A stretch of 31,802 bases of DNA from Nocardioidaceae bacterium (GTDB lineage Bacteria; Actinomycetota; Actinomycetes; Propionibacteriales; Nocardioidaceae): assembly GCA_013696365.1 (NCBI GenBank), contig JACCYS010000337.1:1-31802 (forward strand), in the 5' to 3' direction. The position numbers and the translations under genes were made by a program. Below are positions 7,019 through 30,439 of the stretch, one piece after another. How positions within the stretch are numbered: the first letter of the stretch is position 1; every line of letters starts with the position of its first letter. Below the pieces are notes generated by a model. It saw only the letters and a program-made list of their open reading frames with translations. It ran no database searches and had not been told where the DNA came from.

Positions 7019-7091
7019 GGCATCTCCTCTTCCTGGTGTGCCGGTTGTGGTGCTTGGTGGTGGGCTTGGTGGTGCACCGATCGGCTACGCA

Positions 7092-9083
7092 TCAGTGCAC
7101 GCCAGCCCCAGTACGCTCCGCCGCGCGACGGGTGACGCGGTCGAGCATGATGCCGAGGAACACGATCGCCGCTCCCGCCGCGATGCCCTTGCCGAAGAAC
7201 TCGCCCTGCGAGAAGCCGAGCACCGAGTCGTAGCCGAGCGCCCCCGCACCGACCAGGCCGCCGATGACCGTCATGGACAGCACGAACAGCAGGCCCTGGT
7301 TGGCGGCGAGGACCAGACCGCCGCGGGCCATCGGCAGCTGCACCCGGGTGATGACCTGCCACGGGGTGGAGCCAGCGGCGGTCGCCGCCTCCACCGTCGT
7401 CGGCGAGACGCCCTTGATGCCGTCGGCGACCAGCTTGATGGCGACCGGAGCGGCATAGATGACCGCGGCCACGATCGCCGTGAACCGGGTCGGCCCGAAC
7501 AGCAGCAGCGCCGGAATCAGATAGACGAACGGCGGCATCGTCTGGCCGGCGTCCAACACCGGACGGAGCACCGTGTCGACCGACGGTCGACGCGCCATCC
7601 AGACCCCCAGCACGACGGCTAGCACCATCACCAGCAGGGTGGCGACGAGCACCATCGTCAGCGTCACCATGGAGTCGTTCCAGAGGTCGGTGAGATAGAT
7701 GCCGGCCAGGCAGACACCCGCGGTGAGACACCCCCGCACACCGCCGAGCACGAGCGCGAATGCTGCGATCGCTACCGCCGCCAGCCACCACGGAGAGTTG
7801 GCCAGCAGGTCCTGCAGCGGGTTCAGCAGCAGGGCCGTGACCTGGTTCTTCACGCCCGAGGTGACCACGTCGAAGGTCGAGGTGACCCAGTCGGCGCCCG
7901 ACTGGACCGCGGCGGCGACTGACGAGCCGAGGTCGGTGTCGGGGAACTCGGCCGCCCACAGGTAGGTGCGCGACAGGTAGACCAGAACCAGCGCGGCTGC
8001 CCCGCTGACGGCGAGCACGATCCGGTGCCGGCGGACGTCTCGACCGCCGGCGCGGGCGACGGTCTCGGCGCGCACGCTCGCCGCGGTCGTCGTGCGGTCG
8101 AGCATCACCGCCATGATCACGATGCAGAAGCCGGCGACGAAAGCGGTGCCGACCTGCTGGGCCGACAGCGCCCGCAGGACCGGCTGGCCGAGGCCCGGGC
8201 CGTCGACGAAGGCTGCGATGGTGGCCATCGACAGCGCCGCCATCACGGTCTGGTTGATGCCCACGATGATGGTCTTCTTGGCCATCGGCAGCTGCACCTG
8301 CAGCAGCCGCTGCCGGCCCGTCTGCCCGAGCGAGTCGGTGGCCTCGAGCGTGCTGGCCGCGACCGAGCGGATCCCGTGCGCGGCGATCCGCACCACCGGT
8401 GCGAGGGCGTACAGAAACGTCGCGGCGACTGCAGCCGGCAGTCCAATGCCGAAGAACAAGGTGAGCGGCAGCAGGTAGATGAAGGCGGGCACGGTCTGCA
8501 GCACGTCCAGCACCGGCGTGAGCAGCGTCGTCACCGTCTTGCTGGTGGCCATCCACACCGCGAGCGGCAGCCCGATAGCCAGCGCGATCCCGACGGCGAA
8601 GAACGTGACGATCAGGGTGTCCAGGCTGTCCTCCCACAGGCCGAGCAGGCCAAAGGAGAGGAACGAAGCAACGACGAGCAGCGTGATCCGCCAGCCGGCG
8701 ATAGCGTGGCTCAGCCACGCCGCCACCGCGATGACCCCGAGCCAGCCGACCTGTGGCACTGGGCGCGGAAACGCCGGCTGCGCGACCAGCTCCTGCAGCC
8801 ACCCGCCGATGCTCGCGAGCAGGTCGGCCAGCACGCCGGTGACCTGCATCAGCACGTTGCTTTCCCGGCTGTCGATGAGGTCACCCTTGAGCCCGGTGAA
8901 CCAGTCGTGCAGCCCGGTGCGTCCCAGACCGGGCAGCGCCAGAGTGTCGTTGCCGCGCAGGCCCGCCCACGCCGCGATCCACAGCGCCAGCACCGCAACA
9001 CCGAGCAGCCAGCCCGGCGGCCGTCGCAGCAGCGAGCCGATCCCCTCGACACCTGAACCGCCGCGGACGGCTGTGACACTCAT
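7092..9083 (-). CDS. ABC permease with two fused ProW/OpuAB-type modules, 663 aa
   Basis: Duplicated PVLDxxQTxPxFxYLxP and EAA-loop/VQLPMA motifs; ATGA overlap with the ATPase. Confidence 0.9.
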
Positions 9084-10111
9084 GCGAGCACTGCCTCCTC
9101 GGCGACGACCACTCGCAGGATCGTCTCGTCGTCGACAATCCCCACCAGCTCGCCATCGTCGACGACCCGGACGGGATGGTCCGAGGTCAGGGCCGCGTGT
9201 GCGGCCTCGCGGACGATCGTGTCCGGGCCCATCACGAGACCGTCGGAGGAGTCGTCGGGCCGCGGGTCGCGCATCACGTAGCGCAGCGTGAGCACGTGCG
9301 AGCGCGGCACGTCGCTGACGAAGTCGCGGACGTAGTCGTCGGCGGGAGCGGCCACGATTTCGGCGGCGGTGCCGACCTGGACCACCTCGCCGTCACGCAT
9401 GATGAGGATCCGGTCGCCGAGCTTGAGCGCCTCGGCGAGGTCGTGGGTGATGAACACCATCGTCTTGCCGACCTCGTGGTGCAGCCGGATGACCTCGGCC
9501 TGCATGTCCCTGCGGATCAGCGGGTCGAGAGCCGAGAACGGCTCATCGAAGAGCATCACCGTCGGATCCACAGCGAGCGCCCGGGCCAGCCCGACCCGCT
9601 GCTGCATGCCGCCGGACAGTTGGTCGGGGTAGGAGCGTTCGTTGCCTGTCAGCCCGACCAGATCCACCATCTCCTGCGCGCGGGCGTGCCGCTGCTTCTT
9701 CTTCATGCCGCGGATCTCCAGCCCGTACGCGATGTTGTCGAGCACCTGACGGTGCGGCAGCAGGCCGAAATGCTGGAAGACCATCGACACGTGTGTGCGG
9801 CGCAGCTCACGCAACCGGGCATCCGACATCGTGCGCACGTCCTCGCCGTCGAGCAGCACCTCGCCAGCCGTCGGCTCGATCAGCCGCGTCAGGCAGCGCA
9901 CCAGCGTGGACTTGCCGGAGCCGGACAGCCCCATCACGACGAACACCTCCCCCGGGGCCACGTCGAACGACACGTCCTTGACTGCGGCCGTGCAACCAGT
10001 GCGGTCCAGCAGCTCTGCGCGGGGCAGGTCGGCGTCGGGGCTCCCGACGATCTTGTCGGCGCGCGGGCCGAAGACCTTCCACAGCTGGTCGACTGAGAGT
10101 GCAGCAGTCAC
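9080..10111 (-). CDS. Betaine/proline/choline ABC ATP-binding protein (ProV/OpuAA family), 343 aa
   Basis: [36 protein letters not shown]; GTG start overlaps the betA stop. Confidence 0.93.
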
Positions 10112-11820
10112 CGGCGCACGTCCTGTCCGTTTCGGGGGTCACCGGGAGGATACGGCTGACTGCCGTCGCGGTGGCGGTAGAACGGCACATCCGCAGGCGG
10201 CAGGGCGGTGTTGCCGGCGATCAGGTCGGCGGCCTTCTCGGCCAACATCATCACCGGGGCATAGATGTTGCCGTTGGTGATGGCCGGCATCGCCGACGCG
10301 TCGACGACGCTCAGGCAGCGCAATCCGTGCACCCCCATCGTCTCGGGGTCGAGCGCTGCCAGCTCGTCACTTTCGGCGCCCAGGCTGGCGGTGCACGACG
10401 GGTGGTAGGCGGTTTCGGCGTCCCGGGCCACCCAGTCGAGGATCTGTTCGTCGGTCTCGACGTCCGGGCCGGGTGACAGCTCACCTGCGTCGAAGGCCAC
10501 AAAGGCCGGCTGCGACAGGATGTCGCGCGCAACGCGTACGCACTCCACCCACTCCTGACGATCCTTGGGGGTCGACAGGTAGTTGAACTGCAGCGACGGA
10601 TGCTGCCGCGGGTCGGTGGAGCGGATCGTCACCGACCCGCGGACGTCGGAGTACATCGGGCCGATGTGCACCTGATACCCGTGCTTCTCCGCCGGCTGGC
10701 TGCCGTCGTAACGGATGGCGATCGGCAGGAAGTGGAACATCAGATTGGGATAGTCGACGGCGTCATTGGTGCGCACAAACCCGCCGGCCTCGAAGTGGTT
10801 GGTCGCCCCCAGCCCGCTGCGCAGGAACAACCACTCTGCCCCGATCCGCGGACGGTGCCGCCAGCGCAGCCCGGGGGCGATCGACACCGGCAGCTTCGAG
10901 GCATGCTGCACGTAGACCTCGAGATGGTCCTGCAGGTTGGCACCCACACCGGGAAGAGCGGCGACGACGTCGATGTCGAGCCCCCGCAGCAGGTCGGCAG
11001 GCCCGATCCCGGACAACTGCAGCAGCTGGGGGGTGTTGATGGCGCCACCGCTGCAGATGACGTGCCCGGCACGCACCGAGCGGTGCAGCCGGCCGGCCCG
11101 CAGGTAGTCGACACCGACCGCCCGGTCGCCCTCGAACACGATGCGGGTTGCATGCGCCAGGGTCTCGACGGTGAGGTTCTTCCGGTCCCGCACCGGGTGC
11201 AGGTACGCGCGAGCCGCGCTGAGCCGCCGACCGCGGTGGACGTTGCGGTCGAAGCGGGCGAATCCTTCCTGGCGGTAGCCGTTGACGTCGTCGGTCAGCG
11301 GGTGGCCCGCCTGCTGGGCAGCCTCCAGGAAGGCACCGAACAACGGGCCGGACGCGGCGCCGCGCTCCAGCACCAGGGGGCCGCTGCCGCCCCGCCAGGA
11401 GTCGGCACCGGCAAGGCAGGTCTCCATCCGCTTGAAGTACGGCAGGCAGTGGGCGTAGTCCCACCTCGCCATCCCAGCGGCGCTCGCCCACCCCTCGAAG
11501 TCCAGCGGATTGCCGCGCTGGAAGATCATCCCGTTGATGCTGCTTGACCCGCCGAGCAGCTTGCCGCGCCCGTGGAACACCCGTCGCCCACCCATCTGCG
11601 GCTCCGGGTCGGAGTGGTATCGCCAGTCGTAGAAGCGGCTGCCGATGGGGAACGGCAGTGCTGCCGGCATATGGATGAACGGGTCGATCTTGAGGTCGGA
11701 GCGGCCGGCCTCGAGGACCAGCACGGTCGTGCTGCGGTCAGAGCTCAGCCGGTTGGCGAGCACGCAGCCGGCCGACCCGCCACCGACGATCACGTAGTCG
11801 TAGGTCTTGTCAGTGCTCAT
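10108..11820 (-). CDS. betA: Choline dehydrogenase (GMC oxidoreductase), 570 aa
   Basis: Starts [18 protein letters not shown] (ATG at 11820); [38 protein letters not shown]. Confidence 0.92.
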
Positions 11821-11827
11821 CGCAAAT

Positions 11828-13309
11828 TCATTTCCGGCCACCGAACCAACCTTGCGGCTGTGGGGCAATGTGCTGCCAGATGTGCTTGGTCTCGCGATAC
11901 TCCTCAAGCCCGGCCAGGCCCAGCTCGCGTCCGGTGCCGGACTGCTTGTACCCGCCCCACTCGGCGTGCGGGACGTACGGGTGGTAGTCGTTGATCCATA
12001 CCGTGCCCATCCGCAGCCGGGCGGCCACCCGCTGGCCGCGACCGGAGTCGGCTGTCCATACCGCACCGGCCAGCCCGTAGCGGCTGTCGTTCGCGAGCCG
12101 GACCGCGTCGTCCTCGTCGGTGAACGTCTCGACGGTCAGGATCGGTCCGAACGATTCCTCCTGTACTACCCGCATCGCGCTGGCACAGCCGTCCAGGACG
12201 GTGGGCAGGTAGTAATAGCCGTCGGCCAGCTGCGGGTCGTCCGGCGTCGACCCGCCACAGCGCAGCACCGCCCCCTCGGCGAGGCCGTCTGCGACGTAGG
12301 CGGCGATCTTGTCGCGGTGCGCCGCCGAGATCAGCGGACCGGTCTCGGCCTGTTCGTCGAACGGCCCACCGAGCCGAATCGCTTCGGCACGAGCGACCAG
12401 TTCGTCGACGAACTCGTCATGGATCGACTCGGCGATGACCAGCCGAGCGCCAGCTGAGCAGACCTGGCCAGAATGCAGGAACACCGCCGTCAGGGCCATG
12501 TCCAGGGCCGTCTCGCGGTCTGCATCAGCGAACACGATGTTGGGATTCTTGCCGCCAAGCTCGAGGGCGACCTTCTTCACGGTGGCCGCGGCAGCTGCCA
12601 TAACCGACCGGCCAGTGACCACGCCGCCGGTGAACGACACCAGATCGACATCGTGGTGCTCGGACAGCGGCGCCCCGGCCTCCGGCCCGGCCCCCAGGAC
12701 GAGGTTTGCCACGCCGTCGGGCAGCCCGGCTTCGACAAGCAACCGCATCAGCCAGATCGCCGAGGACGGCGTCAGCTCGCTCGGTTTGAGCACGAAGGTA
12801 TTGCCCGCCGCCAGGCAGGGCGCCACTTTCCACGACGTCTGCAGTAACGGGTAGTTCCAGGGGGTGATCAGGCCACAGACTCCGACCGGCTCACGGACCA
12901 CCCGGCTGACGACGTCTGGCTGGCCGGTGTCGATGACCCGGCCCGCGTCCGCACCGGAGACGGTCAGACCGGCGTAATGCCGGAACACCGCGGCCACGTC
13001 GTCGACGTCGTACTCGCTCTCGACCAGGCGCTTGCCGGTGTCCAGTGACTCCGCCCGAGCCACGTCGTCCTTGTGTTCAAGCAACAGGTCAGCAACCCGC
13101 CAGAGCACCGCCCCGCGTTCCGGGGCAGGCGTCTGCGGCCAGGCACCATTGTCAAATGTGGCCCGGGCGGCGTGGATCGCCGCTTCGGCATCGGTCCGTC
13201 CCGCCTCGTCGACGGTGGCGACCAGGCGCCCGTCGGCGGGGCAGCGGATCGGGCGCGTGGCGCCGGACTGGGCGCCCATCCACTGTCCGCCGATCAGCAG
13301 GTCCGCCAT
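11828..13309 (-). CDS. betB: Betaine aldehyde dehydrogenase, 493 aa
   Basis: ALDH motifs PWNYP, KPSE, FTGG, LELGGK, GQVCSAG, EESFGP; directly upstream of betA. Confidence 0.88.
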
Positions 13310-13404: not shown

Positions 13405-14214
13405 CTAGCCGTCAAGCGCCCGGTCGAGGGGTGGACGCCACCCTAGTCGGCGCGACACCTCACCCGCGGTCTCACGGGTGGCAGTGATCGCGGACCCCAG
13501 CCGCTCGCCCGTCAACCGAAACGTCGGCCCAGACACGCTGATCGAGGCCACGACATCCCCATGCGCGTTGCGTACCGCTGCGGCGACCGCGGTGAGACCG
13601 ACCTCGAGCTCGTCCACCGCCACCGCATACCCGGTGGCTCGCACCTCGGCCAGCTGGGCGGTCAGCACCGCCAGGCTGGCGACGGTGTTGTCGGTGAAGG
13701 TGCGCGGTCGGCGACCGACCACCTGGGCCGCGTCCGCGTCCGGCATCGCCGACAGCAATACCTTGCCGTTTGAGGTGGCGTGCAAGGGGATGCGCTGGCC
13801 GACCCAGTTGTGTGGTTGCAGTGCCGACGAACCGGCGACTTGATCCACATACAACGCGGCATCGTCGGACAAAACGGTGAGGTTCACCGTCTCTCCGGTC
13901 TGCACGGCCAGCGCACGGCACAACCCCCGCGACTCCTGCACCAGGTCCAACCGCGCGGTGGTGGCCGCAGCCAGACGAATCAGCCCGACGCCAAGCCGGT
14001 ACTTGCCGCGCTCGGCGTGCTGCTCGACCAGCCCACGTCGCTCGAGTGCGGAGACAAGGCGAAACGCCGTTGACTTGTGCACGCCCAGCTCGCCGGCGAT
14101 CTCAGTGACACCGCACTCGCCGGCGTGCGCGAGGATCTCCAGCACACTGACCGCACGGTCGACCGACTGCACTGTTGATGCGCCAGCCGACTGCCCCGCC
14201 CCACTGTTGCTCAT
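13405..14214 (-). CDS. IclR family transcriptional regulator (IclR-1), 269 aa
   Basis: VQSVDRAVSVLE, HKSTAFRL HTH, GQRIPLHATSNGK, DELEVGLTAVAA, ISVSGP. Confidence 0.93.
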   Translation of the reverse strand: MSNSGAGQSAGASTVQSVDRAVSVLEILAHAGECGVTEIAGELGVHKSTAFRLVSALERRGLVEQHAERGKYRLGVGLIRLAAATTARLDLVQESRGLCRALAVQTGETVNLTVLSDDAALYVDQVAGSSALQPHNWVGQRIPLHATSNGKVLLSAMPDADAAQVVGRRPRTFTDNTVASLAVLTAQLAEVRATGYAVAVDELEVGLTAVAAAVRNAHGDVVASISVSGPTFRLTGERLGSAITATRETAGEVSRRLGWRPPLDRALDG

Positions 14215-14225
14215 GGAGGAACACT

Positions 14226-14226
<1 letters not shown>
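14206..14226. promoter_or_regulatory. Hybrid operator GTTGC-N7-GGAAC overlapping the IclR-1 start codon, purU SD and a candidate leaderless -10
   Basis: tGTTGCtcatggaGGAACac at 14205-24; GGAGG at 14215-19; minus-strand TAGTGT at 14221-26, 6 nt before the IclR-1 ATG. Confidence 0.6.
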
Positions 14227-15801
<1,575 letters not shown>

Positions 15802-16617: not shown

Positions 16618-18057
16618 TCAGTCCCCGAGCTCGCGCCGACGGCGGGTGACGAAGTCCTCGAGCTCGGCGCGGATCCCCTCGTCCAGTGCCGGCTGCTCGT
16701 AGGACTCCAACCGCTGCTGCCAGATGTTCTCGGCGCGGGCGGCCGTATCCAACGCCCCGTTCTTTACCCAACGCTCGTAGTTGTCCGAGCTTGACAGCAG
16801 CGGGCGGTAGAAGCAGGTGCGGAAGCGCTCCATCGTGTGCATGGCGCCGAGAAAGTGCCCGCCGTGCCCCACCTCCTCGTGAGCTCCGAACGCGAGCGAG
16901 TCATCGTCGATCTCGAGCGGGGTGAACTCGGCCTGCAACATCTGCAGCAGCTCGACATCGACGATGAACTTCTCGAAGCCGGCGACCAGCCCGCCCTCCA
17001 GCCAGCCCGCCGAGTGCATCACCCAGTTGGCGCCGGCGAGAAAGGCCGGCAGCATCGACATCAAAGCCTCATAACCGGCCTGCGCGTCTGGGACCTGACT
17101 TGAGGTGAGTGCCCCGCCGGAGCGAAAAGGCAGGCCGAAGTGGCGGGCGATCTGGCCGGTGCACAGCAGGCCGATGCCGGACTCGGGGGTACCGAAGGTC
17201 GGCGACCCCGACTGCATATTGATCGTGGACAGGAACGAACCGAACACCACCGGTGCACCGGGCCGGATGAGCTGGGCCAGCGCGATACCGCTGAGCGCCT
17301 CGGCGATCTGCTGCACCAGGGCCGCCGGAATCGTCACCGGGGACATCGCCCCCATCAACAGGAACGGTGTGAGCACCACCGGTTGAGCGGCGCCGACGTA
17401 CTCGAAGAGCGCGTCCAGCATCCGGTCGTCCCAGCGCAACGGGGAATTGCAGTTGATCAACGAGATGGTCACCGGTGTGGCTTCGATGGCGGCTCGGCCG
17501 CCGAAGCAGATGTCACACATCGCCAGTACGTCGCGGGCGTTCAAACCGCTCACCACGTTGCCCATGAAAAGCTTGTCGGTGAGCGTCATCAGCGCGTACG
17601 TCATGTCGAGATGTCGAGAGTCGAGCGGAGCGTCGTTGGGCTCACAGACGACGCCGCCGGCTGAGTCCAACGCGTCGAAGGATTGCGCGAGCCGGGCGAA
17701 GTTGCGGTAGTCGTCCATGGTGGCGTCCCGGCGCACCTGCCCCTGGCGGACGAACGGGGGGCCGTACACCGCGCCGAAGGCCATCGCGTCGCCCCCGATG
17801 CGCACGGAGTGGTCGGGGTTGCGGGCGGCGATGTCGAACTCGGCCGGCGCCTTGGCCACCTGTGCGAGGACGAACTCGGGATCGAGGAAGACCGTGTTGT
17901 CGACCACCCGCTGGCCGGCGGCCCGGAACATCTCCAGCGCCGGCTCGGACATGAACTCGACGCCGATCTCGGTGACGATGCGGCGCCAGCCGGCGTCGAG
18001 CTTGTCCATCGCGTCGGCGGACAGGATTTCGTATCGCGGCATCTTGTTGTGGAACAC
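16618..18057 (-). CDS. MttB-superfamily (trimethylamine methyltransferase-like) non-pyrrolysine corrinoid methyltransferase, MtgB-like, 479 aa
   Basis: GTG start with AAGGGAGG SD; INCNSPL, PVTIPAAL, SGSPTFGTPE, VPDAQAGYEA, LAGANWVMHSAGWLEGG, GPGG-like GHGGHFLG. Confidence 0.88.
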   Translation of the reverse strand: MFHNKMPRYEILSADAMDKLDAGWRRIVTEIGVEFMSEPALEMFRAAGQRVVDNTVFLDPEFVLAQVAKAPAEFDIAARNPDHSVRIGGDAMAFGAVYGPPFVRQGQVRRDATMDDYRNFARLAQSFDALDSAGGVVCEPNDAPLDSRHLDMTYALMTLTDKLFMGNVVSGLNARDVLAMCDICFGGRAAIEATPVTISLINCNSPLRWDDRMLDALFEYVGAAQPVVLTPFLLMGAMSPVTIPAALVQQIAEALSGIALAQLIRPGAPVVFGSFLSTINMQSGSPTFGTPESGIGLLCTGQIARHFGLPFRSGGALTSSQVPDAQAGYEALMSMLPAFLAGANWVMHSAGWLEGGLVAGFEKFIVDVELLQMLQAEFTPLEIDDDSLAFGAHEEVGHGGHFLGAMHTMERFRTCFYRPLLSSSDNYERWVKNGALDTAARAENIWQQRLESYEQPALDEGIRAELEDFVTRRRRELGD

Positions 18058-18170: not shown

Positions 18171-18932
18171 TTGAGCAGTACCGGCACCCAGGCGATCGAC
18201 CGGGCGGCTGACTTGCTGCGCCTGGTGGTGCACGCCGACGAGCCGATCAGCTTCACTGATCTGGCCGACGAGAGCGGGCTTGCGCGGTCGACGACGTCTC
18301 GGCTGTTGGCTGCACTGGAGCGCCATCAACTGCTCGAACGCGATGCCGGCGGCTATTTCGTAGCGGGTCCGCTGTTCGCCCTCTACGCCGCCCGGCATGA
18401 TCCGTGGGCCCAGGTGGCCCGGTTGGCCACCCCGACACTGGAGCGCATCGGGGACAAGGTGGGCGAGACGGTCACGCTCGCCATTCCGCGCGGCGACCAG
18501 GTCGTGCAAATCGCACAGGTGGACTCGACCTTCCTGCTTGGCACCGGCGACTGGCTGGGCGTCGAGGTACCGCCGCACTGCTCGGCAGCCGGCAAGGTGC
18601 TCTTGGCCTTCGGCTGCATCGACACGCCGGAGGCTGACCTGCCTCGACTGACCGATCATTCCGTCACCACGCTGGACGACCTCGAACGCCAACTTCGAGC
18701 CATCCGCCGCACCGGATATGCCATCGCCAGCGAGGAGCTCGAGGTCGGACTGGACGCCGTCGCGGCACCCGTGCTCGGGCGCGACGGAGCCGTGGTTGCA
18801 GCCGTCAGCGTCTCCGGTCCCACCAGCCGCATGTCCGATCAGATCGATCATGTCGGTCACATGTTGGTCGACCAGGCGCAGCAGATATCCGACCTGCTGC
18901 GTCGCCGTACCCCGAAAGAAGGCGCAGCATGA
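18171..18932 (+). CDS. IclR family transcriptional regulator (IclR-2), 253 aa
   Basis: TQAIDRAADLL, ARSTTSRLL HTH, PPHCSAAGK, EELEVGLDAVAAP, VSVSGP; TTG start; ATGA overlap with the next gene. Confidence 0.92.
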   Translation: MSSTGTQAIDRAADLLRLVVHADEPISFTDLADESGLARSTTSRLLAALERHQLLERDAGGYFVAGPLFALYAARHDPWAQVARLATPTLERIGDKVGETVTLAIPRGDQVVQIAQVDSTFLLGTGDWLGVEVPPHCSAAGKVLLAFGCIDTPEADLPRLTDHSVTTLDDLERQLRAIRRTGYAIASEELEVGLDAVAAPVLGRDGAVVAAVSVSGPTSRMSDQIDHVGHMLVDQAQQISDLLRRRTPKEGAA

Positions 18933-19594
18933 AACCTGACGAGATCCTGCAAGGCCTCTACGACCTCACCCTGGTGGGCAACGCCCCCGAGGTGCTGGAA
19001 CTGACTAATGCCGGCCTGGCAGCCGGGATGGGGCCGGAGACCATGTTGTTCGACGCGCTCATCCCCTCGCTGGAGGAGGTGGGTGCGCGCTTCGAACGCG
19101 GAGACTTTTTCGTGCCCGAGATGCTGATCGCCGGCCGCGCGATGAGCGGTGCGATGGAGGTGCTGCGTCCGCTGCTTGCCGAGACCGGCGCGCAACAGGT
19201 CGGCACATTCCTGATGGGGACAGTCAAGGGCGACGTCCATGACATCGGCAAGAACCTCGTGAACATCATGCTCGAGGGCGCTGGCTTCAATGTCATCGAC
19301 CTCGGGGTGCAGGTTGCGCCGGAGAAGTTCGTGGAGGCCATCAATGAGCACAAGCCGGACGTAGTCGGCTTCTCGGCGTTCCTCACCACCACCATGCCGA
19401 TGTTCAAAGCCAACCTGAATGCCCTGCAGAAGGCCGGCATCCGCGACAACGTGATCGTGATGGTCGGCGGAGCCCCCGTCACCCAGGAGTACGCCACCGC
19501 TGTCGGTGCCGATGGCTACGCCGCCGACGCATCCTCGTGCGTCAAGAAGGCCAAGGCGCTGATCGCCGAGCGCCGAGCCGCCGTCACCGCCTGA
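18929..19594 (+). CDS. Stand-alone corrinoid (B12-binding) protein, MtgC/MttC-like, 221 aa
   Basis: Cap domain (ERFERGDFFVPEML) plus base-off/His-on motif DVHDIGKN, SAFLTTT and VGGAP. Confidence 0.93.
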   Translation: MKPDEILQGLYDLTLVGNAPEVLELTNAGLAAGMGPETMLFDALIPSLEEVGARFERGDFFVPEMLIAGRAMSGAMEVLRPLLAETGAQQVGTFLMGTVKGDVHDIGKNLVNIMLEGAGFNVIDLGVQVAPEKFVEAINEHKPDVVGFSAFLTTTMPMFKANLNALQKAGIRDNVIVMVGGAPVTQEYATAVGADGYAADASSCVKKAKALIAERRAAVTA

Positions 19595-19619: not shown

Positions 19620-20507
19620 ATGACCCTGCGCCACACCGTCCTCCGCTCAGCGACCAAAGAGGTCGTATTAGGCCATGACCGCCCTTTCACGGTGATCGGC
19701 GAGCGAATCAACCCGACGGGACGCAAGAAGTTTCAGGAACAGTTGCGCTCCGGCGACCTGTCCGCGATCGACACCGACGTGGCCGCGCAGGTGGCTGGTG
19801 GCGCCGACGTACTCGACGTGAACATGGGTGTGCCGCTGACCGACGAGCCGGAGCTCCTGCGCCAAGCCATCGTGCGCGTGCAGGAGTTGACCGACTTGCC
19901 TGTCTGCATCGACTCGTCCGTGGTCGAGGCGTTGGAGGTCGGCTTGGCGACCTACCAAGGTCGCGCTCTCGTCAACTCCGTCACCGCCGAGGATGACCGG
20001 CTGGCTGCCATCTTGCCGCTGGTGAAGCGGTACGACGCGGCGATCATCGCGCTGCCCAACGATGAAGACGAGATCCCGATGGAGGCCGACAAGCGCCTCG
20101 AGCTGACCCGCAAGATCGTCCGGGTCGCCACCGAGGAGTACGGCCTCGCGATCGAGGACATCGTCATTGACCCGCTCGCCATGCCCATCGGGGCGGACAC
20201 CAGCGTGGTCGCGACCACGCTGGACACGATCAGCCGGATCCTGGCCGAGTTCGGGCTGAACATGACCCTGGGTGCCTCCAACGTCTCCTTTGGTATGCCC
20301 GGTCGGCACACGATCGGGGCAGCGTTCTTGCCGATGGCGATGGTTGCCGGCCTGACCAGCGCCATCATGGATGCCCGCAGCCCGCAGATCGTCGAGTCCG
20401 TCAAGGCCGCTGACCTGCTGCTCGGGCATGACGAGTGGGGTGGCGCCTGGATCGCTGCGCACCGCGCGCGGCAGGCCGCTGAGCGGGCGGCGGCGCCCGT
20501 CGCGTGA
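19620..20507 (+). CDS. Methylcorrinoid:tetrahydrofolate methyltransferase (pterin-binding domain; MtgA/AcsE-like), 295 aa
   Basis: VIGERINPTGRK, LDVNMG, CIDSS, LVNSV, IDPL, GASNVSFG, as in the MetH folate domain. Confidence 0.9.
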   Translation: MTLRHTVLRSATKEVVLGHDRPFTVIGERINPTGRKKFQEQLRSGDLSAIDTDVAAQVAGGADVLDVNMGVPLTDEPELLRQAIVRVQELTDLPVCIDSSVVEALEVGLATYQGRALVNSVTAEDDRLAAILPLVKRYDAAIIALPNDEDEIPMEADKRLELTRKIVRVATEEYGLAIEDIVIDPLAMPIGADTSVVATTLDTISRILAEFGLNMTLGASNVSFGMPGRHTIGAAFLPMAMVAGLTSAIMDARSPQIVESVKAADLLLGHDEWGGAWIAAHRARQAAERAAAPVA

Positions 20508-22525
20508 GCGGCCCAGCACCCGAGGACGAGCCGGAGCCGGTCCAGGTGCCGGACCGCTCCGCCCATGACGTCGGCGCCTTTGACCTCGGCGACTTTGACC
20601 TTGGCTCGCTGGCACGCGAAGGGTTGTGGGAGCCGCAGGAGCAGGTGAACACAGCCGAGGCAGGCCAGCATGAGGGCCTTGGGCGGGTGCGCCTGCACTT
20701 CACTCCGGCGGACAAGTCGTATGCGGTGCCCCCAGGCGTGACCGTCTTTGACGCCGCCAGTTGGAACGGCATCGCCATCGACTCGACCTGCGGCGGGCAC
20801 GGCACCTGCAAGAAGTGCAAGGTGCAGGTGACCGGCGGCGAGGTGCCCGCGAGCCGGCTCGACGAGCGGGCATTCAACCCGGAGCAGCTGGCGACGGGGT
20901 GGCGACTGGCCTGCCGGGTCACAGCCACCACCGACCTGAGCGTCGACGTGCCGCCACTAGCGACCCGGCCGAAGGCTGCCACCGTCGGTGTGGGCCGCCA
21001 GGTCATCTTGCGTCCAGCGGTGCAGAAGCGCTTCGTGCGGCTTGACGAGCCGACCCTGCACGACCAGCGACCGGACCTGCGGCGGCTCACCGATGCCGTC
21101 GACGACCTCGCGCTGCGGCCAACCCTGCACGTGTTGCGCCGTCTGCCCCGCGTGCTGCGTGAGTCCGATTTCGCGCTCACGGCCGTGGTGGTCGACGACC
21201 TGCTGATCGACGTCGAGCCCGGTGACACCACCGCGACCCGGCACGCCATCGCGTTCGACCTCGGGACGACCACCGTGGTGGCAACGCTGCTCGACCTCGG
21301 CACCGGCACACCGGTCGCAGTCGCCTCGATGCTGAACGCTCAGCAGCCCTTTGGCGCGGACGTCATCACCCGGATCTCAGCGACCATGCTTGACCCGACA
21401 GCCCTGGATCGTATGCGGGAGCTGGCCATCCAGACGCTCAACACCCTCGTCGGTGAGGTGTGCGACGAGGCCGGCATCGAGCGCAGCAGCGTCTACGAGC
21501 TGGCGGTCGCAGGCAACGCCACGATGACCGCGCTGCTGCTCGGGGTCGACCCCGAGGCGTTGGGAGTGGCGCCGTTCGTGATGACCGCCGACCACTTCAC
21601 GTCGCTGACCGCCGCCGATATCGGCATCGGCGTACACCCGGTCGCGCCGGTGCAAGTCTTCCCGGCCCTTGGCGCCTACGTCGGGGGCGACATCGTCGCC
21701 GGCATGCTCGCCTCGGGGATGGATCGGGACAAGCGGCTGCGGTTGTTCATCGACGTCGGCACCAACTGCGAGATCGTGCTCGCCGACGGCGAGACCATCG
21801 TGGCCACCGCGGCACCAGCCGGGCCGGCCTTCGAGGGAGGTGCCATCCGCTGCGGCATGCGGGCCGCATCCGGTGCCATCGAGGTGGTGCAGATCGGCAC
21901 CGACACCGTCTCGGTGCAGGTGATCAGTTCCGGCGCCGACACCACAGTCGCGCCGGTCGGCCTGTGTGGCTCTGGGCTCGTGGACGCCGTCGCCGAGCTG
22001 GTGCGGGTCGGACTGCTGGACCGCACCGGCCGCTTCGTGGCCGACGGCGACGCCGCCGTGGCGCACCCGCAGCTCGCCGACCGACTGACTCGGGTGGGTG
22101 AAGAGCGAGTGTTCGTGCTTGCCTGGCTGGGCGACGAAGGGGACGTGTCCGACTCGGTGTACGTCTCCCAGCGTGACGTTCGCGAGCTGCAGTTTGCCAA
22201 GGCGGCCATCGCTACCGGCTGGTCACTGCTGTGCGCCGAGCTCGAGGTCGACCCCCGCGACGTGCAGCAGGTGTTGCTCGCCGGCTCATTCGGCTCGTAC
22301 CTGTCTCCTGGCAACGCGGTGCGGATCGGCCTGGTGCCCGAGCTGCCCGTGCTGCGCATCGTCAGCGCTGGCAACGTCGCCGGCGAAGGCGCCAAGATGA
22401 GTCTGCTCAGCATGCCTGAGCGCGCTGGGGCGGCCACCTTGCTCAAAGAGGTGCGGTATCTCGAGCTGTCGGATCGAGCCGACTTCAACGACAGGTTCAT
22501 CGACCAGCTGTCCTTTCCAGGCTGA
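20504..22525 (+). CDS. Reductive activator of corrinoid proteins (RACo/RamA-like; [2Fe-2S] plus ASKHA ATPase), 673 aa
   Basis: CGGHGTCKKC...RLAC ferredoxin motif; AFDLGTTT, FIDVGTNCE, APAGPAFEGG, GLCGSG, LAGSFG, GNVAGEGA. Confidence 0.9.
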   Translation: MSGPAPEDEPEPVQVPDRSAHDVGAFDLGDFDLGSLAREGLWEPQEQVNTAEAGQHEGLGRVRLHFTPADKSYAVPPGVTVFDAASWNGIAIDSTCGGHGTCKKCKVQVTGGEVPASRLDERAFNPEQLATGWRLACRVTATTDLSVDVPPLATRPKAATVGVGRQVILRPAVQKRFVRLDEPTLHDQRPDLRRLTDAVDDLALRPTLHVLRRLPRVLRESDFALTAVVVDDLLIDVEPGDTTATRHAIAFDLGTTTVVATLLDLGTGTPVAVASMLNAQQPFGADVITRISATMLDPTALDRMRELAIQTLNTLVGEVCDEAGIERSSVYELAVAGNATMTALLLGVDPEALGVAPFVMTADHFTSLTAADIGIGVHPVAPVQVFPALGAYVGGDIVAGMLASGMDRDKRLRLFIDVGTNCEIVLADGETIVATAAPAGPAFEGGAIRCGMRAASGAIEVVQIGTDTVSVQVISSGADTTVAPVGLCGSGLVDAVAELVRVGLLDRTGRFVADGDAAVAHPQLADRLTRVGEERVFVLAWLGDEGDVSDSVYVSQRDVRELQFAKAAIATGWSLLCAELEVDPRDVQQVLLAGSFGSYLSPGNAVRIGLVPELPVLRIVSAGNVAGEGAKMSLLSMPERAGAATLLKEVRYLELSDRADFNDRFIDQLSFPG

Positions 22526-22543: not shown

Positions 22544-23395
22544 TCAGCGGACCGGCACCGGCCCCAACAGCCGCTGGCGCCACCGTTCGGTCTCGGCAAC
22601 CTGGTTGAAGGTGAACAGGTGCAGCCCGGCGACCCCCGTCACCGGGTCGTTGAACAGGTCGGCAGTGCGGCTGAGCAGCCGCTCCGGGCTGAAGCCACCC
22701 GGTGCCGCGATCCGCGCGAAGATGGAGGCGTTCTTGGCCAGGAATCTGGTGGACTCCCCCACCCCGATCTTGGTCGCCATCGCCAGCAGCTTGGTGCGCT
22801 CCACCGGTCCAGGCACTCCCATCAGCACGGGCAGGTTGATGCCGCGGGCACGCATGCGCCGCACCCAGGTGCGCAGCTCGACGGGATCGAAGCAGAGGTT
22901 CCCCACCACATACGTGGCGTGCGCACGCTTGTCCCACATCGCCTGGATGGCCAGGTCGTCGGAGATGGACGGGTGGCTTTCGGGGTACCCGGTGATCCCG
23001 ACCTGTGCGAACGGGCGTCCGAGCTCGGTGAGGTCGCGGATCAGCTCAAGCGAGCCGTGATAGTCCCCGGCCGGCGGATCCGCGTCCCCGGCTGGGACGA
23101 ACACATTGCTGACTCCGAACCCGACGAGCCGCGCGGCCAGGTCAGCCAGGTGCTCGCGGTCACGCACCATCCTCGCCGCCACATGCGGCACCACCTGATA
23201 GCCGTGGGAGGCGAGCCGCTCGGCACAGTCGAGGGTCGCGTCCAGTCCCTTGCCAGCCGAGGCCGTCACCGTCAGCGTGGTGCCAAGCGGCACCGACTCC
23301 AGCACTGCGGCCTCAATGCTTGCTGTCGGCAGCACCTCATACCGGGCAGCCGTGAGCGCGGCACGAAGCCCCGCAGATCGCACTGTGCTTGCCAT
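22544..23395 (-). CDS. metF: Methylenetetrahydrofolate reductase family protein, 283 aa
   Basis: RYEVLP, VPHVAAR, VFVPAGD, GITGYPESHP, LHLFTFN. Confidence 0.87.
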   Translation of the reverse strand: MASTVRSAGLRAALTAARYEVLPTASIEAAVLESVPLGTTLTVTASAGKGLDATLDCAERLASHGYQVVPHVAARMVRDREHLADLAARLVGFGVSNVFVPAGDADPPAGDYHGSLELIRDLTELGRPFAQVGITGYPESHPSISDDLAIQAMWDKRAHATYVVGNLCFDPVELRTWVRRMRARGINLPVLMGVPGPVERTKLLAMATKIGVGESTRFLAKNASIFARIAAPGGFSPERLLSRTADLFNDPVTGVAGLHLFTFNQVAETERWRQRLLGPVPVR

Positions 23396-23517: not shown

Positions 23518-24813
23518 TCAGGTGGGCTGGTCGGTGTGCCGCTCCAACAGCACCGACACCATGAGGACGCCAAGCCCACCTGCGGCCAGGGCTGCGCCGA
23601 CCCAGCTCGGTGCGAGCAGGCCTAACCCGGCGCCAATCACCAGGCCGCCAAGCCAGGCACCCAAGGCGTTGGCCGCATTCAGCGAGGCGTGGTTGAGCGC
23701 GGCCCCGAGGGTCCGCGCGTCGCCGGCGACGTCCATCAACCGCATCTGCAGGCAGGTGACCAGCACCGAACCGTTGAAGGCGATCACGAAGACGCCCACG
23801 GTGATGCCGATCGCGGTCTGAGCCAATACAGTCAGACCTGCCAGCAGCAGCACCATCAGGGAAAGGCTGGCAACCAGCGACGGCACCAGCGCCCGATCCG
23901 CGGCCCGGCCGCCAGCCACCGTACCTAGCACGCCACCGACTCCGAAGGCCAGCAGAATCAGCGGAATGCTGCCGGCAGACATTCCGGTGACATCGGTGAT
24001 CAGCGGGGCGATGTAGCTGTACATCGAGAACATGCCGCCGAAACCGATCATGCCGACGAGCACCGTCAGCCACACCTGCGGGCGGCGCAGCGCACTGAGC
24101 TCGCGGCGCACGGACGCCGCGCTGCTGCCCGGGGCTGACGGCACCAGCATGGCCGTCGCCAGCACGCACAGCACCGCGATCGCCGATACGGTCCAGTAGG
24201 CACTGCGCCAGCCCACCGCCTGGCCCAGCCAGGTCGCTGCGGGCACCCCCACCACGTTGGCCGCCGCCAAGCCGAGCATCACGCTGCTGACCGCCTGGCC
24301 GCGGCGCTCCGGCAGCACCAGGGAGGCAGCGAGCAGGGACGCCACCCCGAAGTACGCCCCGTGCGGCAACCCGGCCAGCAGCCGAGCAGCGGTCACCCCG
24401 ACCGGGCCGGGGGCCACCGCGGTCAACACGTTGGCGGCGGCGGAAAAGAGCATCAGCACGCCCAGCAGCCGTCGGCGGGGCATCCGCGCGCCCGCGGCGG
24501 CGATGACCGGGGCACCGAGGACCACCCCGACCGCGTACGCCGAGATCAGATAGCCACCTTGCGGGATACTGACCCCCAGACCGTCGGCGATGTCCGGCAG
24601 CAAGCCCATCGTGACGAACTCGGAGGTTCCGATGGCGAAGCTGCCGATCGCCATCGCGAAGATGGCGAGGACCGCCCGGCGGCGCGGCGGCACGTCAACG
24701 TCCGGGCCGGCGAAGACCGTCGCGCGGGCGCGGGTCAACGGGCGCAGCACGGGAGGAGCCACGCGGGGAGTCACGCGGGGAGTCACAGGGCGAGTCGGCA
24801 CATCAGCGCGCAA
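23518..24813 (-). CDS. MFS transporter (DHA1/Cmx-like); start uncertain
   Basis: FAIGTSEFVTMGLLP, ISAYAVGV, ARLLAGLPHGAYFG, ANVVGVP, FNA-like SLNAANALGAWLGG; about 12 hydrophobic segments. Confidence 0.88.
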   Translation of the reverse strand: MRADVPTRPVTPRVTPRVAPPVLRPLTRARATVFAGPDVDVPPRRRAVLAIFAMAIGSFAIGTSEFVTMGLLPDIADGLGVSIPQGGYLISAYAVGVVLGAPVIAAAGARMPRRRLLGVLMLFSAAANVLTAVAPGPVGVTAARLLAGLPHGAYFGVASLLAASLVLPERRGQAVSSVMLGLAAANVVGVPAATWLGQAVGWRSAYWTVSAIAVLCVLATAMLVPSAPGSSAASVRRELSALRRPQVWLTVLVGMIGFGGMFSMYSYIAPLITDVTGMSAGSIPLILLAFGVGGVLGTVAGGRAADRALVPSLVASLSLMVLLLAGLTVLAQTAIGITVGVFVIAFNGSVLVTCLQMRLMDVAGDARTLGAALNHASLNAANALGAWLGGLVIGAGLGLLAPSWVGAALAAGGLGVLMVSVLLERHTDQPT

Positions 24814-28958: not shown

Positions 28959-29264
28959 TCACATCCCCGGCTGGTCGGGGACCAGCACCGCGAGAACCAC
29001 AATCGTGGCACCCAGCGCGATCATCACCAGCACGTCCGACCCGGTGCGCCGTATGTGCAGCAGCCCGGTGTGCCGCTCGGGCAGCACGATCCTGGCGAGC
29101 GAGGCCAGTACTACCGCCGAGCCTACGATCGTCAAACCGACCCGCCACTGGTCCACCGCGACGATCACCAGGCCGAGGAAAGTCACGGCCAAGGTGAGCA
29201 CGACGACGAGCGAACCGTACGGACGCCCGGCCGGTCCCGGCCGAGATATGCCGGGTCGTGGCAT
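28959..29264 (-). CDS. DUF3017-like small membrane protein, 101 aa
   Basis: Three hydrophobic segments with [17 protein letters not shown]; position between folD and mdh; TGATG overlap with folD. Confidence 0.78.
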
Positions 29265-30118
29265 CAGCCGCCAGCCTGCTGTTCGGCGGCCTCGACGACA
29301 TTGGTGAGCAGCAGCGCACGGGTCATGGGGCCGACACCCCCAGGGTTGGGCGACACCCAAGCAGCCACCTCGGCGACGTCGTCGGCAACATCACCGACGA
29401 TGCCGCCCTGCACCCGGCTCACGCCGACGTCGAGCACGGCGGCGCCGGGTTTGACCATCTCAGCGGACACGATGCCCGCCACGCCGGCAGCAGCGACCAC
29501 GATGTCGGCGCGACGCACCTCAGCGTGCAGGTCCTGGGTGCCGGTATGGCACAGCGTCACCGTCGCGTTCTCACTGCGGCGGGTGAGCAGCAGGCCCAGC
29601 GAACGGCCGACGGTGATTCCCCGGCCGATCACGGTCACGTTGGCCCCTGCGATGGGCACGTCGTGGCGGCGAAGCAGCTCGATGACGCCACGCGGGGTGC
29701 ACGGCAGCGGGGCAGGCTTGCCGAGCACCAACCAGCCGAGGTTGGTGGGATGCAGACCGTCCGCGTCCTTGACCGGGTCGATCCGTGCGAGCACCGCGTT
29801 CTCGTCCCTGCCCTTCGGCAACGGCAGTTGCACGATGTAGCCGGTGCAAGCCGGGTCGGCGTTCAGCCCATCGACCTCGCGCTCGATCTGCTCCTGGGTG
29901 GCATCAGCAGCCAGGTCAACTCGGATCGACTCGATGCCGACCTCGGCACAGTCTCGGTGCTTGCCGCCGACATACCAGCGGCTGCCGGGGTCGTCGCCGA
30001 CCAGCACGGTGCCTAGACCCGGCACGACTCCGCGGTCCCGCAGTGCGGCGACCCTGCGCTTGAGGTCAGCCTTGATGGCTGCCGCGGCTGCCTTGCCGTC
30101 GAGGATCTGCGCTGTCAC
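29264..30118 (-). CDS. folD: Bifunctional methylene-THF dehydrogenase/methenyl-THF cyclohydrolase, 284 aa
   Basis: GTG start MTAQILDGK; [41 protein letters not shown]. Confidence 0.96.
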
Positions 30119-30192
30119 GGTCGCCGAGTCTGCCACGGCGGGACACCGGTGGATCACACCCGCCGCCGCTGCCTCCGCCATTCGCCCCCGAC

Positions 30193-30280
30193 CGAGTGGC
30201 GCAAATCGGCCAGACTGCCCGCGTGAGTGGCGCAATACGTGCGTGAATCGGGCGGCGTACGGGGCTTCTTGCGCCACTCG
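30193..30280. repeat. REP/REPIN-like inverted-repeat unit, left
   Basis: GAGTGGCGCAA at 30194 and 30225; inverted TTGCGCCACTCG at 30269-80. Confidence 0.85.
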
Positions 30281-30342
30281 ACCGGGCGGAGCCCAGGCTG
30301 GCACCGGCGGGCGGCGCCAGGGTCGACGCCAGTAATCAACAG

Positions 30343-30351
30343 TTGTCCACA
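30343..30351 (+). promoter_or_regulatory. DnaA-box consensus match TTGTCCACA
   Basis: Exact match to TT(A/G)TCCACA in the folD/nuclease-like gene spacer; single copy. Confidence 0.4.
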
Positions 30352-30439
30352 GGGGCGGCTGCAGCGGCCACCACCGGGGCCAACCTCGACCCACACTCAG
30401 CCCGTGGATCGGCAGGCAAGCGCTCGTACCCATCCCAAT

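What the first reader, a model, noticed from the sequence alone, without database searches (positions are those of the whole stretch)
22544..23395. MetF looks like the catabolic, methyl-THF-oxidising type and has Asn where the conserved Gln is expected
Seen: VPHVAAR, AGDADPPAGDY, GITGYPESHPSI, AMWDK and GVPGP...IGVGES. From memory these resemble Sphingobium SYK-6 MetF of the ligM-metF-ligH demethylation operon more than E. coli MetF. The folate-binding TQ(F/L)xFD segment reads GNLCFD. Inference: the enzyme reoxidises methyl-THF made by MT2 to methylene-THF, closing the folate cycle of the demethylase, and is not the methionine-synthesis MetF.
Basis: partly seen in the sequence, partly recalled or inferred. 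Interest (0 to 1): 0.6.

Follow-up and report, generated by a model that had tools for sequence, protein, structure and literature searches.

The report
Catabolic MetF paralogue with Asn-for-Gln
This gene is a second, divergent methylene-tetrahydrofolate reductase in a soil actinobacterium's choline/glycine-betaine breakdown island; it most likely runs backwards, oxidising methyl-folate, as enzymes described in 2025 do, but it belongs to a large undescribed actinobacterial branch with its own active-site signature.

Summary
ORF 22544-23395 (-) encodes a 283-aa MTHFR-fold protein with every quoted motif, and residue 166 is Asn where E. coli has Gln183 and Sphingobium S6MTHFR has Gln175.

The reading is supported as far as computation can go.
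- The closest solved structure is S6MTHFR (E 5e-29; model TM 0.78), well ahead of T. thermophilus and E. coli MetF.
- On a tree the gene falls in a 100/100-supported group with proteobacterial methyl-THF-oxidising "type 4" enzymes, apart from canonical MetF.
- The genome has a separate canonical MetF and a MetH.
- The gene is syntenic with RACo-MT2-MtgC-MttB in 10 of 11 relatives. FolD and PurU lie in the same window.
- The same idea was published for Ruegeria pomeroyi MetF2 (PNAS 2025), and this scan noted similar islands in other genomes.

New here:
- The gene keeps only one of the seven residues that define type 4, so the published structural reason for excluding NADH cannot be transferred.
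- Asn166 is invariant in a clade found in at least 588 species genomes. The wider family keeps Gln, including members beside MttB clusters, so Asn marks a lineage, not corrinoid coupling.
- Streptomyces members of the Asn clade sit beside a Rieske-type betaine oxygenase in genomes with no MttB or RACo. This is unexplained.

Direction of catalysis, cofactor and electron acceptor are untested.

The parts
22544..23395 (-). Divergent MTHFR paralogue (283 aa), called MTHFRx here; member of the catabolic superclade, Asn-type subclade
22898..22900 (-). Codon of Asn166 (position C; equals E. coli Gln183 and S6MTHFR Gln175)
20504..22525 (+). RACo-type corrinoid reductive activase ([2Fe-2S] + ASKHA), convergent with MTHFRx; the two stop codons are 18 bp apart
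19620..20507 (+). MT2: methyl-corrinoid:THF methyltransferase (pterin-binding domain), the presumed source of CH3-THF
18929..19594 (+). MtgC-like corrinoid protein
18171..18932 (+). IclR-family regulator
16618..18057 (-). Non-pyrrolysine MttB-family MT1 (uninterrupted 479-aa ORF), presumed glycine betaine:corrinoid methyltransferase
14175..15107 (+). PurU, formyl-THF deformylase (ACT + Formyl_trans_N)
29264..30433 (-). FolD ORF; Pfam domains cover residues 111-386, so the true start is probably later
3363..5885 (-). Dimethylglycine dehydrogenase-like enzyme (DAO-FAO_M-GCV_T)
1589..3366 (-). ETF beta (2590-3366) and ETF alpha (about 1589-2599), a candidate electron acceptor system
6023..13309 (-). 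OpuA-type betaine ABC importer, GMC choline dehydrogenase/oxidase and betaine aldehyde dehydrogenase
23518..24813 (-). MFS transporter upstream of MTHFRx on the same strand, 122-bp gap

Best explanation
The gene encodes a flavin-type (beta-alpha)8 methylene-THF reductase homologue that works in the catabolic, oxidative direction. The MttB-family MT1 takes a methyl group from glycine betaine onto the Co(I) corrinoid protein. MT2 passes it to THF, giving CH3-THF. This enzyme oxidises CH3-THF to CH2-THF by hydride transfer to bound FAD. The electrons then go to an unidentified acceptor above about -200 mV, possibly ETF or menaquinone. FolD and PurU, both in the window, convert CH2-THF to formate and free THF. 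The canonical MetF on another contig supplies MetH. Asn166 replaces the pterin-binding Gln at position C. It keeps the carboxamide group, is fixed in a large Actinomycetes clade, and comes with other clade-specific changes near the catalytic Asp (Pro101, Pro107) and in the preceding helix (Met153, Trp154, Arg157). It is best read as a remodelled but working pterin pocket. Shown here: gene integrity, homology, phylogenetic placement, synteny, the second canonical copy, and conservation of Glu20, Asp104 and Asn166. Inferred: FAD binding, reaction direction, electron acceptor, and the effect of Asn.
For: The best sequence and fold match is S6MTHFR, which was shown to oxidise CH3-THF and barely use NADH (PMC11868366). 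The tree separates canonical MetF from a superclade holding the query family and the proteobacterial type-4 enzymes at 100/100. Members of this superclade lie beside methyl-THF-forming or THF-linked demethylases and PurU/FolD. Examples are LigM-like-MetF-PurU-FolD on Rhodococcus opacus and Agrobacterium plasmids, cmuB in M. extorquens CM4, GcvT-like genes in haloarchaea and other Actinomycetota, and MttB-RACo-MT2-MtgC. In 10 of 11 relatives with an orthologue the gene lies beside RACo-MT2-MtgC-IclR-MttB; 40 of 80 named species loci show the same. Most relatives carry both a canonical and a divergent copy. Positions A to D are intact in chemical type: Glu20, Met206, Asn166, Asp104 (PMC11094777). 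R. pomeroyi MetF2, next to mtgD, was the most induced protein on betaine and was proposed to oxidise methyl-H4F (PMC12478193).
Against: There is no biochemical evidence for this clade. Six of the seven residues that Yu et al. use to explain NADH exclusion and folded CH3-THF binding are replaced: Leu48 to Ser46, Pro49 to Ala47, Arg78 to Met76, Phe215 to Met206, Cys219 to Ile210 and Pro268 to Thr262. The beta8-alpha11 loop reads T-F-N, like E. coli T-L-N. Streptomyces and Kribbella members of the same Asn clade live in genomes without MttB or RACo. In Streptomyces the surrounding islands should yield only formaldehyde and CH2-THF. No IclR operator was found upstream of the gene, so co-regulation with the betaine genes is not shown.
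Confidence: 0.7

Rival explanations
1. It is a second, condition-specific reductive MetF. During choline and betaine catabolism it reduces the surplus CH2-THF made by dimethylglycine and sarcosine oxidation to CH3-THF for MetH/SAM.
For: The NADH-blocking residues of S6MTHFR are missing, and the beta8-alpha11 loop resembles E. coli. The Streptomyces Asn-type genes sit in islands with no CH3-THF-forming enzyme but several CH2-THF-forming ones.
Against: Every genome checked already has a canonical MetF. The protein is in the superclade of enzymes with genetic or biochemical evidence for oxidation. In this genome it lies directly beside MT2/RACo. PurU and FolD neighbours point to C1 disposal, not methionine synthesis.
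Confidence: 0.15
2. It is a general relief valve for a methyl-folate trap, not a dedicated partner of MT2. Under heavy C1-folate flux the canonical MetF drives folate into CH3-THF; this enzyme returns it to CH2-THF so that FolD and PurU can free THF. The chemistry is the same as in the best explanation, but the role is wider.
For: The Asn clade is kept in choline/betaine islands whether betaine is demethylated by MttB or by a Rieske-type oxygenase, and often lies beside PurU.
Against: This is purely inferential. No flux or expression data exist. The deepest Asn-clade branches are MttB-linked, so the Streptomyces case could be a leftover.
Confidence: 0.1
3. It is a flavin-free, Mfr-like enzyme, or a catalytically dead paralogue.
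For: It is an actinobacterial gene that scores weakly against PF02219. Mycobacterial Mfr enzymes are also divergent (PMC11094777).
Against: No Mfr chain appears among PDB sequence hits at E<=1, nor among the Foldseek PDB matches listed down to rank 48; the best matches are FAD-bound MTHFRs. Glu20, His71, Asp104, the Y-P-E-x-H motif and Asn166 are invariant over 200 sequences, which argues for an active enzyme.
Confidence: 0.05

Closest known systems
S6MTHFR / 'type 4' MTHFR (Sphingobium lignivorans SYK-6 MetF; PDB 7XG9, 7XLF; Yu et al. 2025, PMC11868366), with the CM4 and Ndbn-20 homologues
   Same: It is the best PDB sequence and fold match and lies on the same side of the 100/100 split from canonical MetF. 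It shares the single-domain size of about 285 aa, the catalytic Glu and Asp, Phe269 (Phe263 here), and a gene context beside a methyl-THF-forming demethylase with PurU and FolD.
   Different: Identity is only 29-30%. The type-4 signature is largely absent: Ser46-Ala47 for Leu48-Pro49, Met76 for Arg78, Met206 for Phe215, Ile210 for Cys219, and Thr262-Phe-Asn-Gln for Pro268-Phe-Gly-Gly. Asn replaces Gln175. The partner demethylase is a corrinoid MttB system, not LigM, DesA or Dmt. Where the proteobacterial type-4 clade sits relative to the actinobacterial family is only weakly resolved (85/81).
MetF2 (SPO1862) of Ruegeria pomeroyi DSS-3, encoded next to mtgD of the aerobic MtgBCD glycine betaine demethylase (PMC12478193)
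   Same: The proposed role is the same: a MetF paralogue oxidises methyl-H4F made by a B12-dependent MttB-family betaine demethylase in an aerobe, alongside a housekeeping MetF.
   Different: It comes from a different phylum. Its sequence could not be obtained through the tools, so its clade and its Gln or Asn status were not compared. Its activators are RamA and DUF1638, not RACo. Its function is also inferred, from proteomics.
E. coli MetF and the canonical type-2 MTHFRs, including this genome's own copy at G000:C248
   Same: They share the TIM-barrel fold, catalytic Glu28 (Glu20) and Asp120 (Asp104), His88 (His71), the Y-P-E-x-H motif and a T-x-N loop after beta8.
   Different: Identity is 19-25%. 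The two groups are separated by the longest branch in the tree. Gln183 becomes Asn and Phe223 becomes Met. The query scores far below the TIGR00676 cut-off. The gene context is catabolic.
Mycobacterial flavin-independent Mfr (MSMEG_6649, Rv2172c, hMfr)
   Same: It is also a divergent actinobacterial methylene-THF reductase, with a carboxamide residue at position C and a non-aromatic hydrophobic residue at position B.
   Different: There is no detectable sequence similarity. Mfr is the biosynthetic enzyme of mycobacteria and uses NADH directly.

Membership tests
MTHFR superfamily (PF02219 fold) | Significant match to the family profile and a (beta-alpha)8 barrel | tested here: met
   PF02219 scores 40.6 bits, above the cut-off of 24. 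The AF2 model has pLDDT 84 and its listed Foldseek hits are all MTHFRs.
MTHFR superfamily (PF02219 fold) | Catalytic positions A (Glu), D (Asp), C (carboxamide) and B (large hydrophobic) | tested here: met
   Glu20, Asp104, Asn166 and Met206 align with E. coli Glu28, Asp120, Gln183 and Phe223. The definition of the positions is from PMC11094777.
Canonical biosynthetic MetF (TIGR00676 equivalog) | Score above the curated equivalog cut-off | tested here: not met
   51.3 bits against a cut-off of 293.7. The genome's other copy scores 321 bits on PF02219.
Type 4 MTHFR sensu Yu et al. 2025 | Loop beta2-alpha3 motif Leu48-Pro49, held in place by Arg78 | tested here: not met
   The query has Ser46-Ala47 and Met76. 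The family consensus is Ser-Pro with Met or Leu.
Type 4 MTHFR sensu Yu et al. 2025 | Helix alpha8 residues Phe215 and Cys219 | tested here: not met
   Met206 and Ile210.
Type 4 MTHFR sensu Yu et al. 2025 | Loop beta8-alpha11 motif Tyr-Pro268-Phe269-Gly-Gly-Leu | tested here: not met
   Phe-Thr262-Phe263-Asn-Gln-Val; only the Phe is kept.
Type 4 MTHFR sensu Yu et al. 2025 | Phylogenetic grouping with S6MTHFR-type enzymes, apart from types 1-3 | tested here: inconclusive
   It groups with the CM4, Sphingobium and Agrobacterium enzymes against canonical type 2 at 100/100. Types 1 and 3 were not included, and the internal branching is weak.
Type 4 MTHFR sensu Yu et al. 2025 | Genomic coupling to a THF-dependent, methyl-THF-forming demethylase | tested here: met
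   It lies beside MT2, MtgC, MttB and RACo, and this is conserved in relatives.
Type 4 MTHFR sensu Yu et al. 2025 | CH3-THF oxidation with negligible NADH reactivity | not testable with these tools
   This needs an enzyme assay.
MetF2 of aerobic MtgBCD betaine demethylation (R. pomeroyi) | MetF paralogue encoded with the mtg genes, alongside a housekeeping MetF | tested here: met
MetF2 of aerobic MtgBCD betaine demethylation (R. pomeroyi) | Sequence orthology to SPO1862 | not tested
   No reference to the SPO1862 sequence was available through the tools.

The most novel reading that the evidence does not exclude
The Asn-type clade is a functionally distinct, undescribed MTHFR subfamily of Actinomycetes. 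It is found in at least 588 species genomes, including many Streptomyces. Its role is not simply to recycle the product of a methyl-THF-forming demethylase. It may protect the folate pool from a methyl trap during heavy C1 flux, or it may use a different redox partner or direction. On this reading the fixed Gln-to-Asn change and its companion substitutions (Pro101, Pro107, Met153, Trp154, Arg157, Ala230) retune pterin binding for that role.
Probability: 0.2. Interest if true: 0.6.

Novelty: new variant of a known kind. Interest (0 to 1): 0.4.

Why it matters
Reverse-running MTHFRs were characterised only in 2025, from a few Proteobacteria, and were defined by three motifs. This gene shows that a much larger family lacks those motifs yet has the same catabolic gene contexts. 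The family was found in 77 of 401 sampled Actinomycetota genomes, and also occurs on haloarchaeal megaplasmids and Rhodococcus plasmids. The motif-based definition therefore misses most of the diversity, and the published structural explanation for direction may not be general. The Asn-type subclade is a natural variant at a residue conserved across MTHFR, Mfr and Mer. That makes it a ready test of how position C tunes folate affinity. The Streptomyces case raises a concrete, testable question about why a reverse MTHFR is kept where no methyl-THF source is evident. For annotation, these genes are labelled 'methylenetetrahydrofolate reductase (NADPH)' with methionine GO terms, which is probably wrong.

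Tried and rejected
Context was taken from the genome search, the fetch from genomes, the search for related loci and annotated plasmids instead.
- I looked for an IclR operator (GTTSC-N7-GSAAC) upstream of the gene. None lies in 23396-23517, and window-wide counts are not above chance.
- An Rfam scan of the window found no riboswitch or other RNA family.
- I tested whether Asn marks coupling to the corrinoid system. This is rejected: Gln-type relatives also sit beside MttB-RACo-MT2-MtgC (L170, L182, L184, L186, L187), and Asn-type Streptomyces genes have no MttB.
- I considered filing the gene as type 4 sensu stricto. This is rejected on the motif tests.
- The plasmid hit labelled 'Escherichia coli ... 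metF' (pJM105) sits in a hutI-metF-purU-folD array and groups with the M. extorquens CM4 chloromethane-cluster MetF in the trees, so it is not E. coli MetF. The real E. coli MetF was taken from NC_000913.3.
- I could not obtain the R. pomeroyi SPO1862 or S6MTHFR sequences as references. S6MTHFR was compared only through the PDB alignment and through Sphingobium RAC03, Agrobacterium and CM4 proxies.

Full report
**What is there.** The ORF at 22544-23395 (minus strand, ATG start, 283 aa) is a real gene.
- Its GC3 is 0.85, like the other genes of this high-GC window.
- Homologues reach 98% identity and number in the thousands.
- It matches PF02219 (MTHFR), but only at 40.6 bits.
- It scores 51 bits against the canonical MetF equivalog TIGR00676, whose cut-off is 294.
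- Window 22886-22909 (-) reads VVGNLCFD.
- In a multiple alignment Asn166 falls on E. coli Gln183, and on Gln in all eight other reference enzymes.
- In the alignment to PDB 7xg9 it falls on Gln175 of S6MTHFR.

**Surroundings.** The window is a choline/glycine-betaine catabolic island.
- It holds ETF beta and alpha, a dimethylglycine dehydrogenase-like enzyme, an OpuA-type ABC importer, a GMC choline dehydrogenase, a betaine aldehyde dehydrogenase, an IclR regulator and PurU.
- It then holds an MttB-family methyltransferase without pyrrolysine, a second IclR, an MtgC-like corrinoid protein, a pterin-binding MT2 and a RACo activase.
- The MTHFR gene is convergent with RACo, and an MFS transporter lies upstream on its strand.
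- FolD lies 6 kb further on.
- The complete route is therefore encoded here: betaine methyl to CH3-Co, to CH3-THF, to CH2-THF, to 10-formyl-THF, to formate.

**Is it the biosynthetic MetF?** No.
- The assembly is a 2.6-Mb MAG, 93% complete. It has a second MTHFR on contig C248 that scores 321 bits and is 40% identical to E. coli MetF over its full length.
- MetH is present; MetE was not found.
- Among 30 relatives, most carry both a canonical copy (about 300 bits) and a divergent copy (about 35-45 bits).

**Where it belongs.**
- By sequence, the closest solved structure is S6MTHFR of Sphingobium SYK-6, at E 4.8e-29. T. thermophilus MTHFR scores 4e-8, and E. coli MetF is not listed.
- An AlphaFold model (pLDDT 84) matches 7xlf/7xg9 at TM 0.77-0.78. 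It matches T. thermophilus, H. influenzae and E. coli enzymes at 0.59-0.68.
- A careful IQ-TREE analysis of 69 sequences splits canonical MetFs from everything else at 100/100, on the longest branch of the tree. The canonical set is E. coli plus six actinobacterial copies.
- The other side holds the query family and a 100/100 clade of proteobacterial enzymes: M. extorquens CM4, Sphingobium RAC03 and Agrobacterium pAt. These carry the type-4 motifs.
- The place of that proteobacterial clade inside the superclade is only weakly supported (85/81). I leave it open whether it is nested or sister.
- Two quicker trees gave the same main split.

**What is known about that side of the tree.**
- Yu et al. 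2025 (PMC11868366) showed that S6MTHFR oxidises CH3-THF (kcat 29 per second) and hardly reacts with NADH.
- They attributed this to Leu48-Pro49 (held by Arg78), Phe215/Cys219 and the Pro268-Phe269-Gly-Gly-Leu loop. They defined a 'type 4' family by these motifs and by coupling to THF-dependent demethylases.
- A 2025 PNAS paper (PMC12478193) reports an aerobic B12-dependent MtgBCD betaine demethylase in Ruegeria pomeroyi. A MetF paralogue next to mtgD (MetF2) was the most induced protein on betaine and was proposed to oxidise methyl-H4F.
- Earlier notes of this scan reached the same reading on other actinobacterial genomes.

**What differs.** The query keeps only one of the seven type-4 signature residues.

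| S6MTHFR residue | Query residue |
|---|---|
| Leu48 | Ser46 |
| Pro49 | Ala47 (Pro in most relatives) |
| Arg78 | Met76 |
| Phe215 | Met206 |
| Cys219 | Ile210 |
| Pro268 | Thr262 |
| Phe269 | Phe263 (kept) |
| Gly270-Gly271 | Asn264-Gln265 |

- The loop after beta8 (T-F-N) resembles E. coli (T-L-N) more than S6MTHFR.
- The published structural argument for NADH exclusion therefore cannot be carried over. By the motif definition the gene is not type 4.

**The wider family.**
- An exhaustive HMMER search found 299 representative clusters at E<=1e-30. The top 150 all score above 170 bits, closer to the query than S6MTHFR is.
- These representatives share the query's T-[AC]-S-P and T-F-N-x motifs.
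- The family was found in 77 of 401 sampled Actinomycetota genomes.
- It also occurs on haloarchaeal megaplasmids and on Rhodococcus and Arthrobacter plasmids.

**Contexts across the family.** Nearly all the contexts examined are catabolic C1-folate settings.
- LigM-like aminomethyltransferase-MetF-PurU-FolD beside protocatechuate 4,5-cleavage genes in R. opacus.
- GcvT-like genes with DHFR or FolD in haloarchaea.
- DMGDH-like plus stand-alone GcvT-like genes, or MttB-RACo-MT2-MtgC, in other Actinomycetota classes.
- In the query's own taxonomic family, 10 of 11 relatives with an orthologue have it beside RACo-MT2-MtgC-IclR-MttB.

**The Asn.**
- Asn166 is invariant in the 121 closest proteins (63-98% identity).
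- It is also invariant in all 80 species loci retrieved from GTDB genomes (60-86% identity).
They include Nocardioidaceae and other Propionibacteriales, many Streptomyces, Dactylosporangium and Kribbella.
- The more distant family is mostly Gln: 106 of 119 representatives, with Asn in 9.
- The Asn core clade is 100/100 on the tree. One further Asn sequence (L180) is its weakly supported sister. Two Gln/Asn changes suffice on either tree tested.
- Six other residues are fixed in the Asn clade and rare in Gln-type relatives: Pro101 and Pro107 flanking the catalytic Asp104, Met153, Trp154 and Arg157 in the preceding helix, and Ala230.

**What is known about this position.**
- In E. coli MTHFR, Gln183 makes a bidentate hydrogen bond to pterin N1 and N8-H.
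- Gln183Ala and Gln183Glu raise the Km for CH2-THF more than 250-fold (PMC11094777).
- That paper describes the position as always carrying a carboxamide across MTHFR, Mfr and Mer.
- Asn is thus a conservative replacement, shorter by one methylene. The likely result is a reshaped but functional pterin pocket. The kinetic consequence is unknown.

**Asn is not a marker of corrinoid coupling.**
- Gln-type relatives also sit beside MttB-RACo-MT2-MtgC (L170, L182, L184, L186, L187).
- Conversely, 32 of the 80 Asn-type loci, essentially all from Streptomyces, lack the corrinoid genes.

**The Streptomyces context.**
- The gene overlaps betA by 4 bp.
- It lies among a Rieske oxygenase alpha subunit with a ferredoxin-reductase-like partner, PurU, betB, an OpuA importer and a DMGDH-like enzyme.
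- Heterotetrameric sarcosine oxidase genes follow downstream.
- Four Streptomyces genomes and one Kribbella genome have no PF06253 (MttB) match.
- The three Streptomyces genomes and the Kribbella genome searched for PF14574 (RACo) have no match either.
- The Streptomyces clade is nested among MttB-linked lineages. The corrinoid context is therefore probably ancestral and was replaced.
- Why a reverse MTHFR is kept where all C1 units should emerge as formaldehyde or CH2-THF is unexplained.
- One reconciling idea is relief of a methyl-folate trap. The NADH-driven canonical MetF would pull surplus CH2-THF irreversibly into CH3-THF, and this enzyme would return it. This is inference only.
- The alternative is that the Asn-type enzyme can run reductively.

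**Verdict.**
- I put about 0.7 on CH3-THF oxidation coupled to the neighbouring corrinoid demethylase.
- I put about 0.1 on the same chemistry in a broader folate-pool role, about 0.15 on a reductive role, and 0.05 on a flavin-free or inactive protein.
- The kind of system is known since 2025. This gene is a new variant: a large actinobacterial lineage that lacks the defining type-4 motifs and carries a fixed Asn at position C.
- Two genomes flagged as unpublished (G006, G017) were among the relatives searched, and two more (G155, G302) among the genomes sampled.

Noticed in passing
L112 (Streptomyces sp. NBC_01537, NZ_CP109392.1 5286297-5307100) and L191: A Streptomyces choline-to-glycine island holds a Rieske-type oxygenase with its reductase, betA, an Asn-type MTHFR, purU, betB, OpuA, a DMGDH-like gene and SoxB/DA/G. 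The genome has no MttB or RACo, so no methyl-THF source for the MTHFR paralogue is evident.
   Followed up: partly
window 15310-15801 (+): A 163-aa ORF matches only positions 46-169 of the 446-position alpha-amylase catalytic domain (E 3.5e-45). It looks like a gene fragment stranded between purU and the MttB gene.
   Followed up: no
L171-L178 (several Actinomycetota genomes of another class): A conserved DMGDH-like - stand-alone GcvT-like - Gln-type MTHFR arrangement, with a weakly LigM-like gene downstream in most. The stand-alone GcvT-like protein may be an uncharacterised THF-dependent demethylase that forms methyl-THF.
   Followed up: no
L004 (Haloarcula marismortui pNG700) and L011 (Halomicrococcus plasmid): Haloarchaeal megaplasmids carry close relatives of this bacterial catabolic MTHFR family (about 40% identity). 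Neighbours include GcvT-like genes, DHFR or FolD, a BCCT transporter and PABA synthesis genes. This suggests inter-domain transfer of a methyl-folate catabolic module.
   Followed up: no
G000:C374:2342-3442 (-): The window's own genome encodes a Rieske oxygenase alpha subunit 48% identical to the Streptomyces betaine-island enzyme. The organism may have an oxygenase route for some N-methyl compound in addition to the corrinoid route.
   Followed up: no
canonical MetF copies of relatives G007 and G011 (loci L028, L033): In the tree alignment, the canonical MetF copies of two relatives show Glu at the column of E. coli Gln183. This could be a natural Gln183Glu-like variant or an alignment artefact.
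   Followed up: no
L066 (MAG labelled Chloroflexota, 4.8-kb contig): An Asn-type MTHFR 69% identical to the query lies on a short contig binned as Chloroflexota, nested among Nocardioidaceae sequences. This is probably a binning error or a recent transfer.
   Followed up: no
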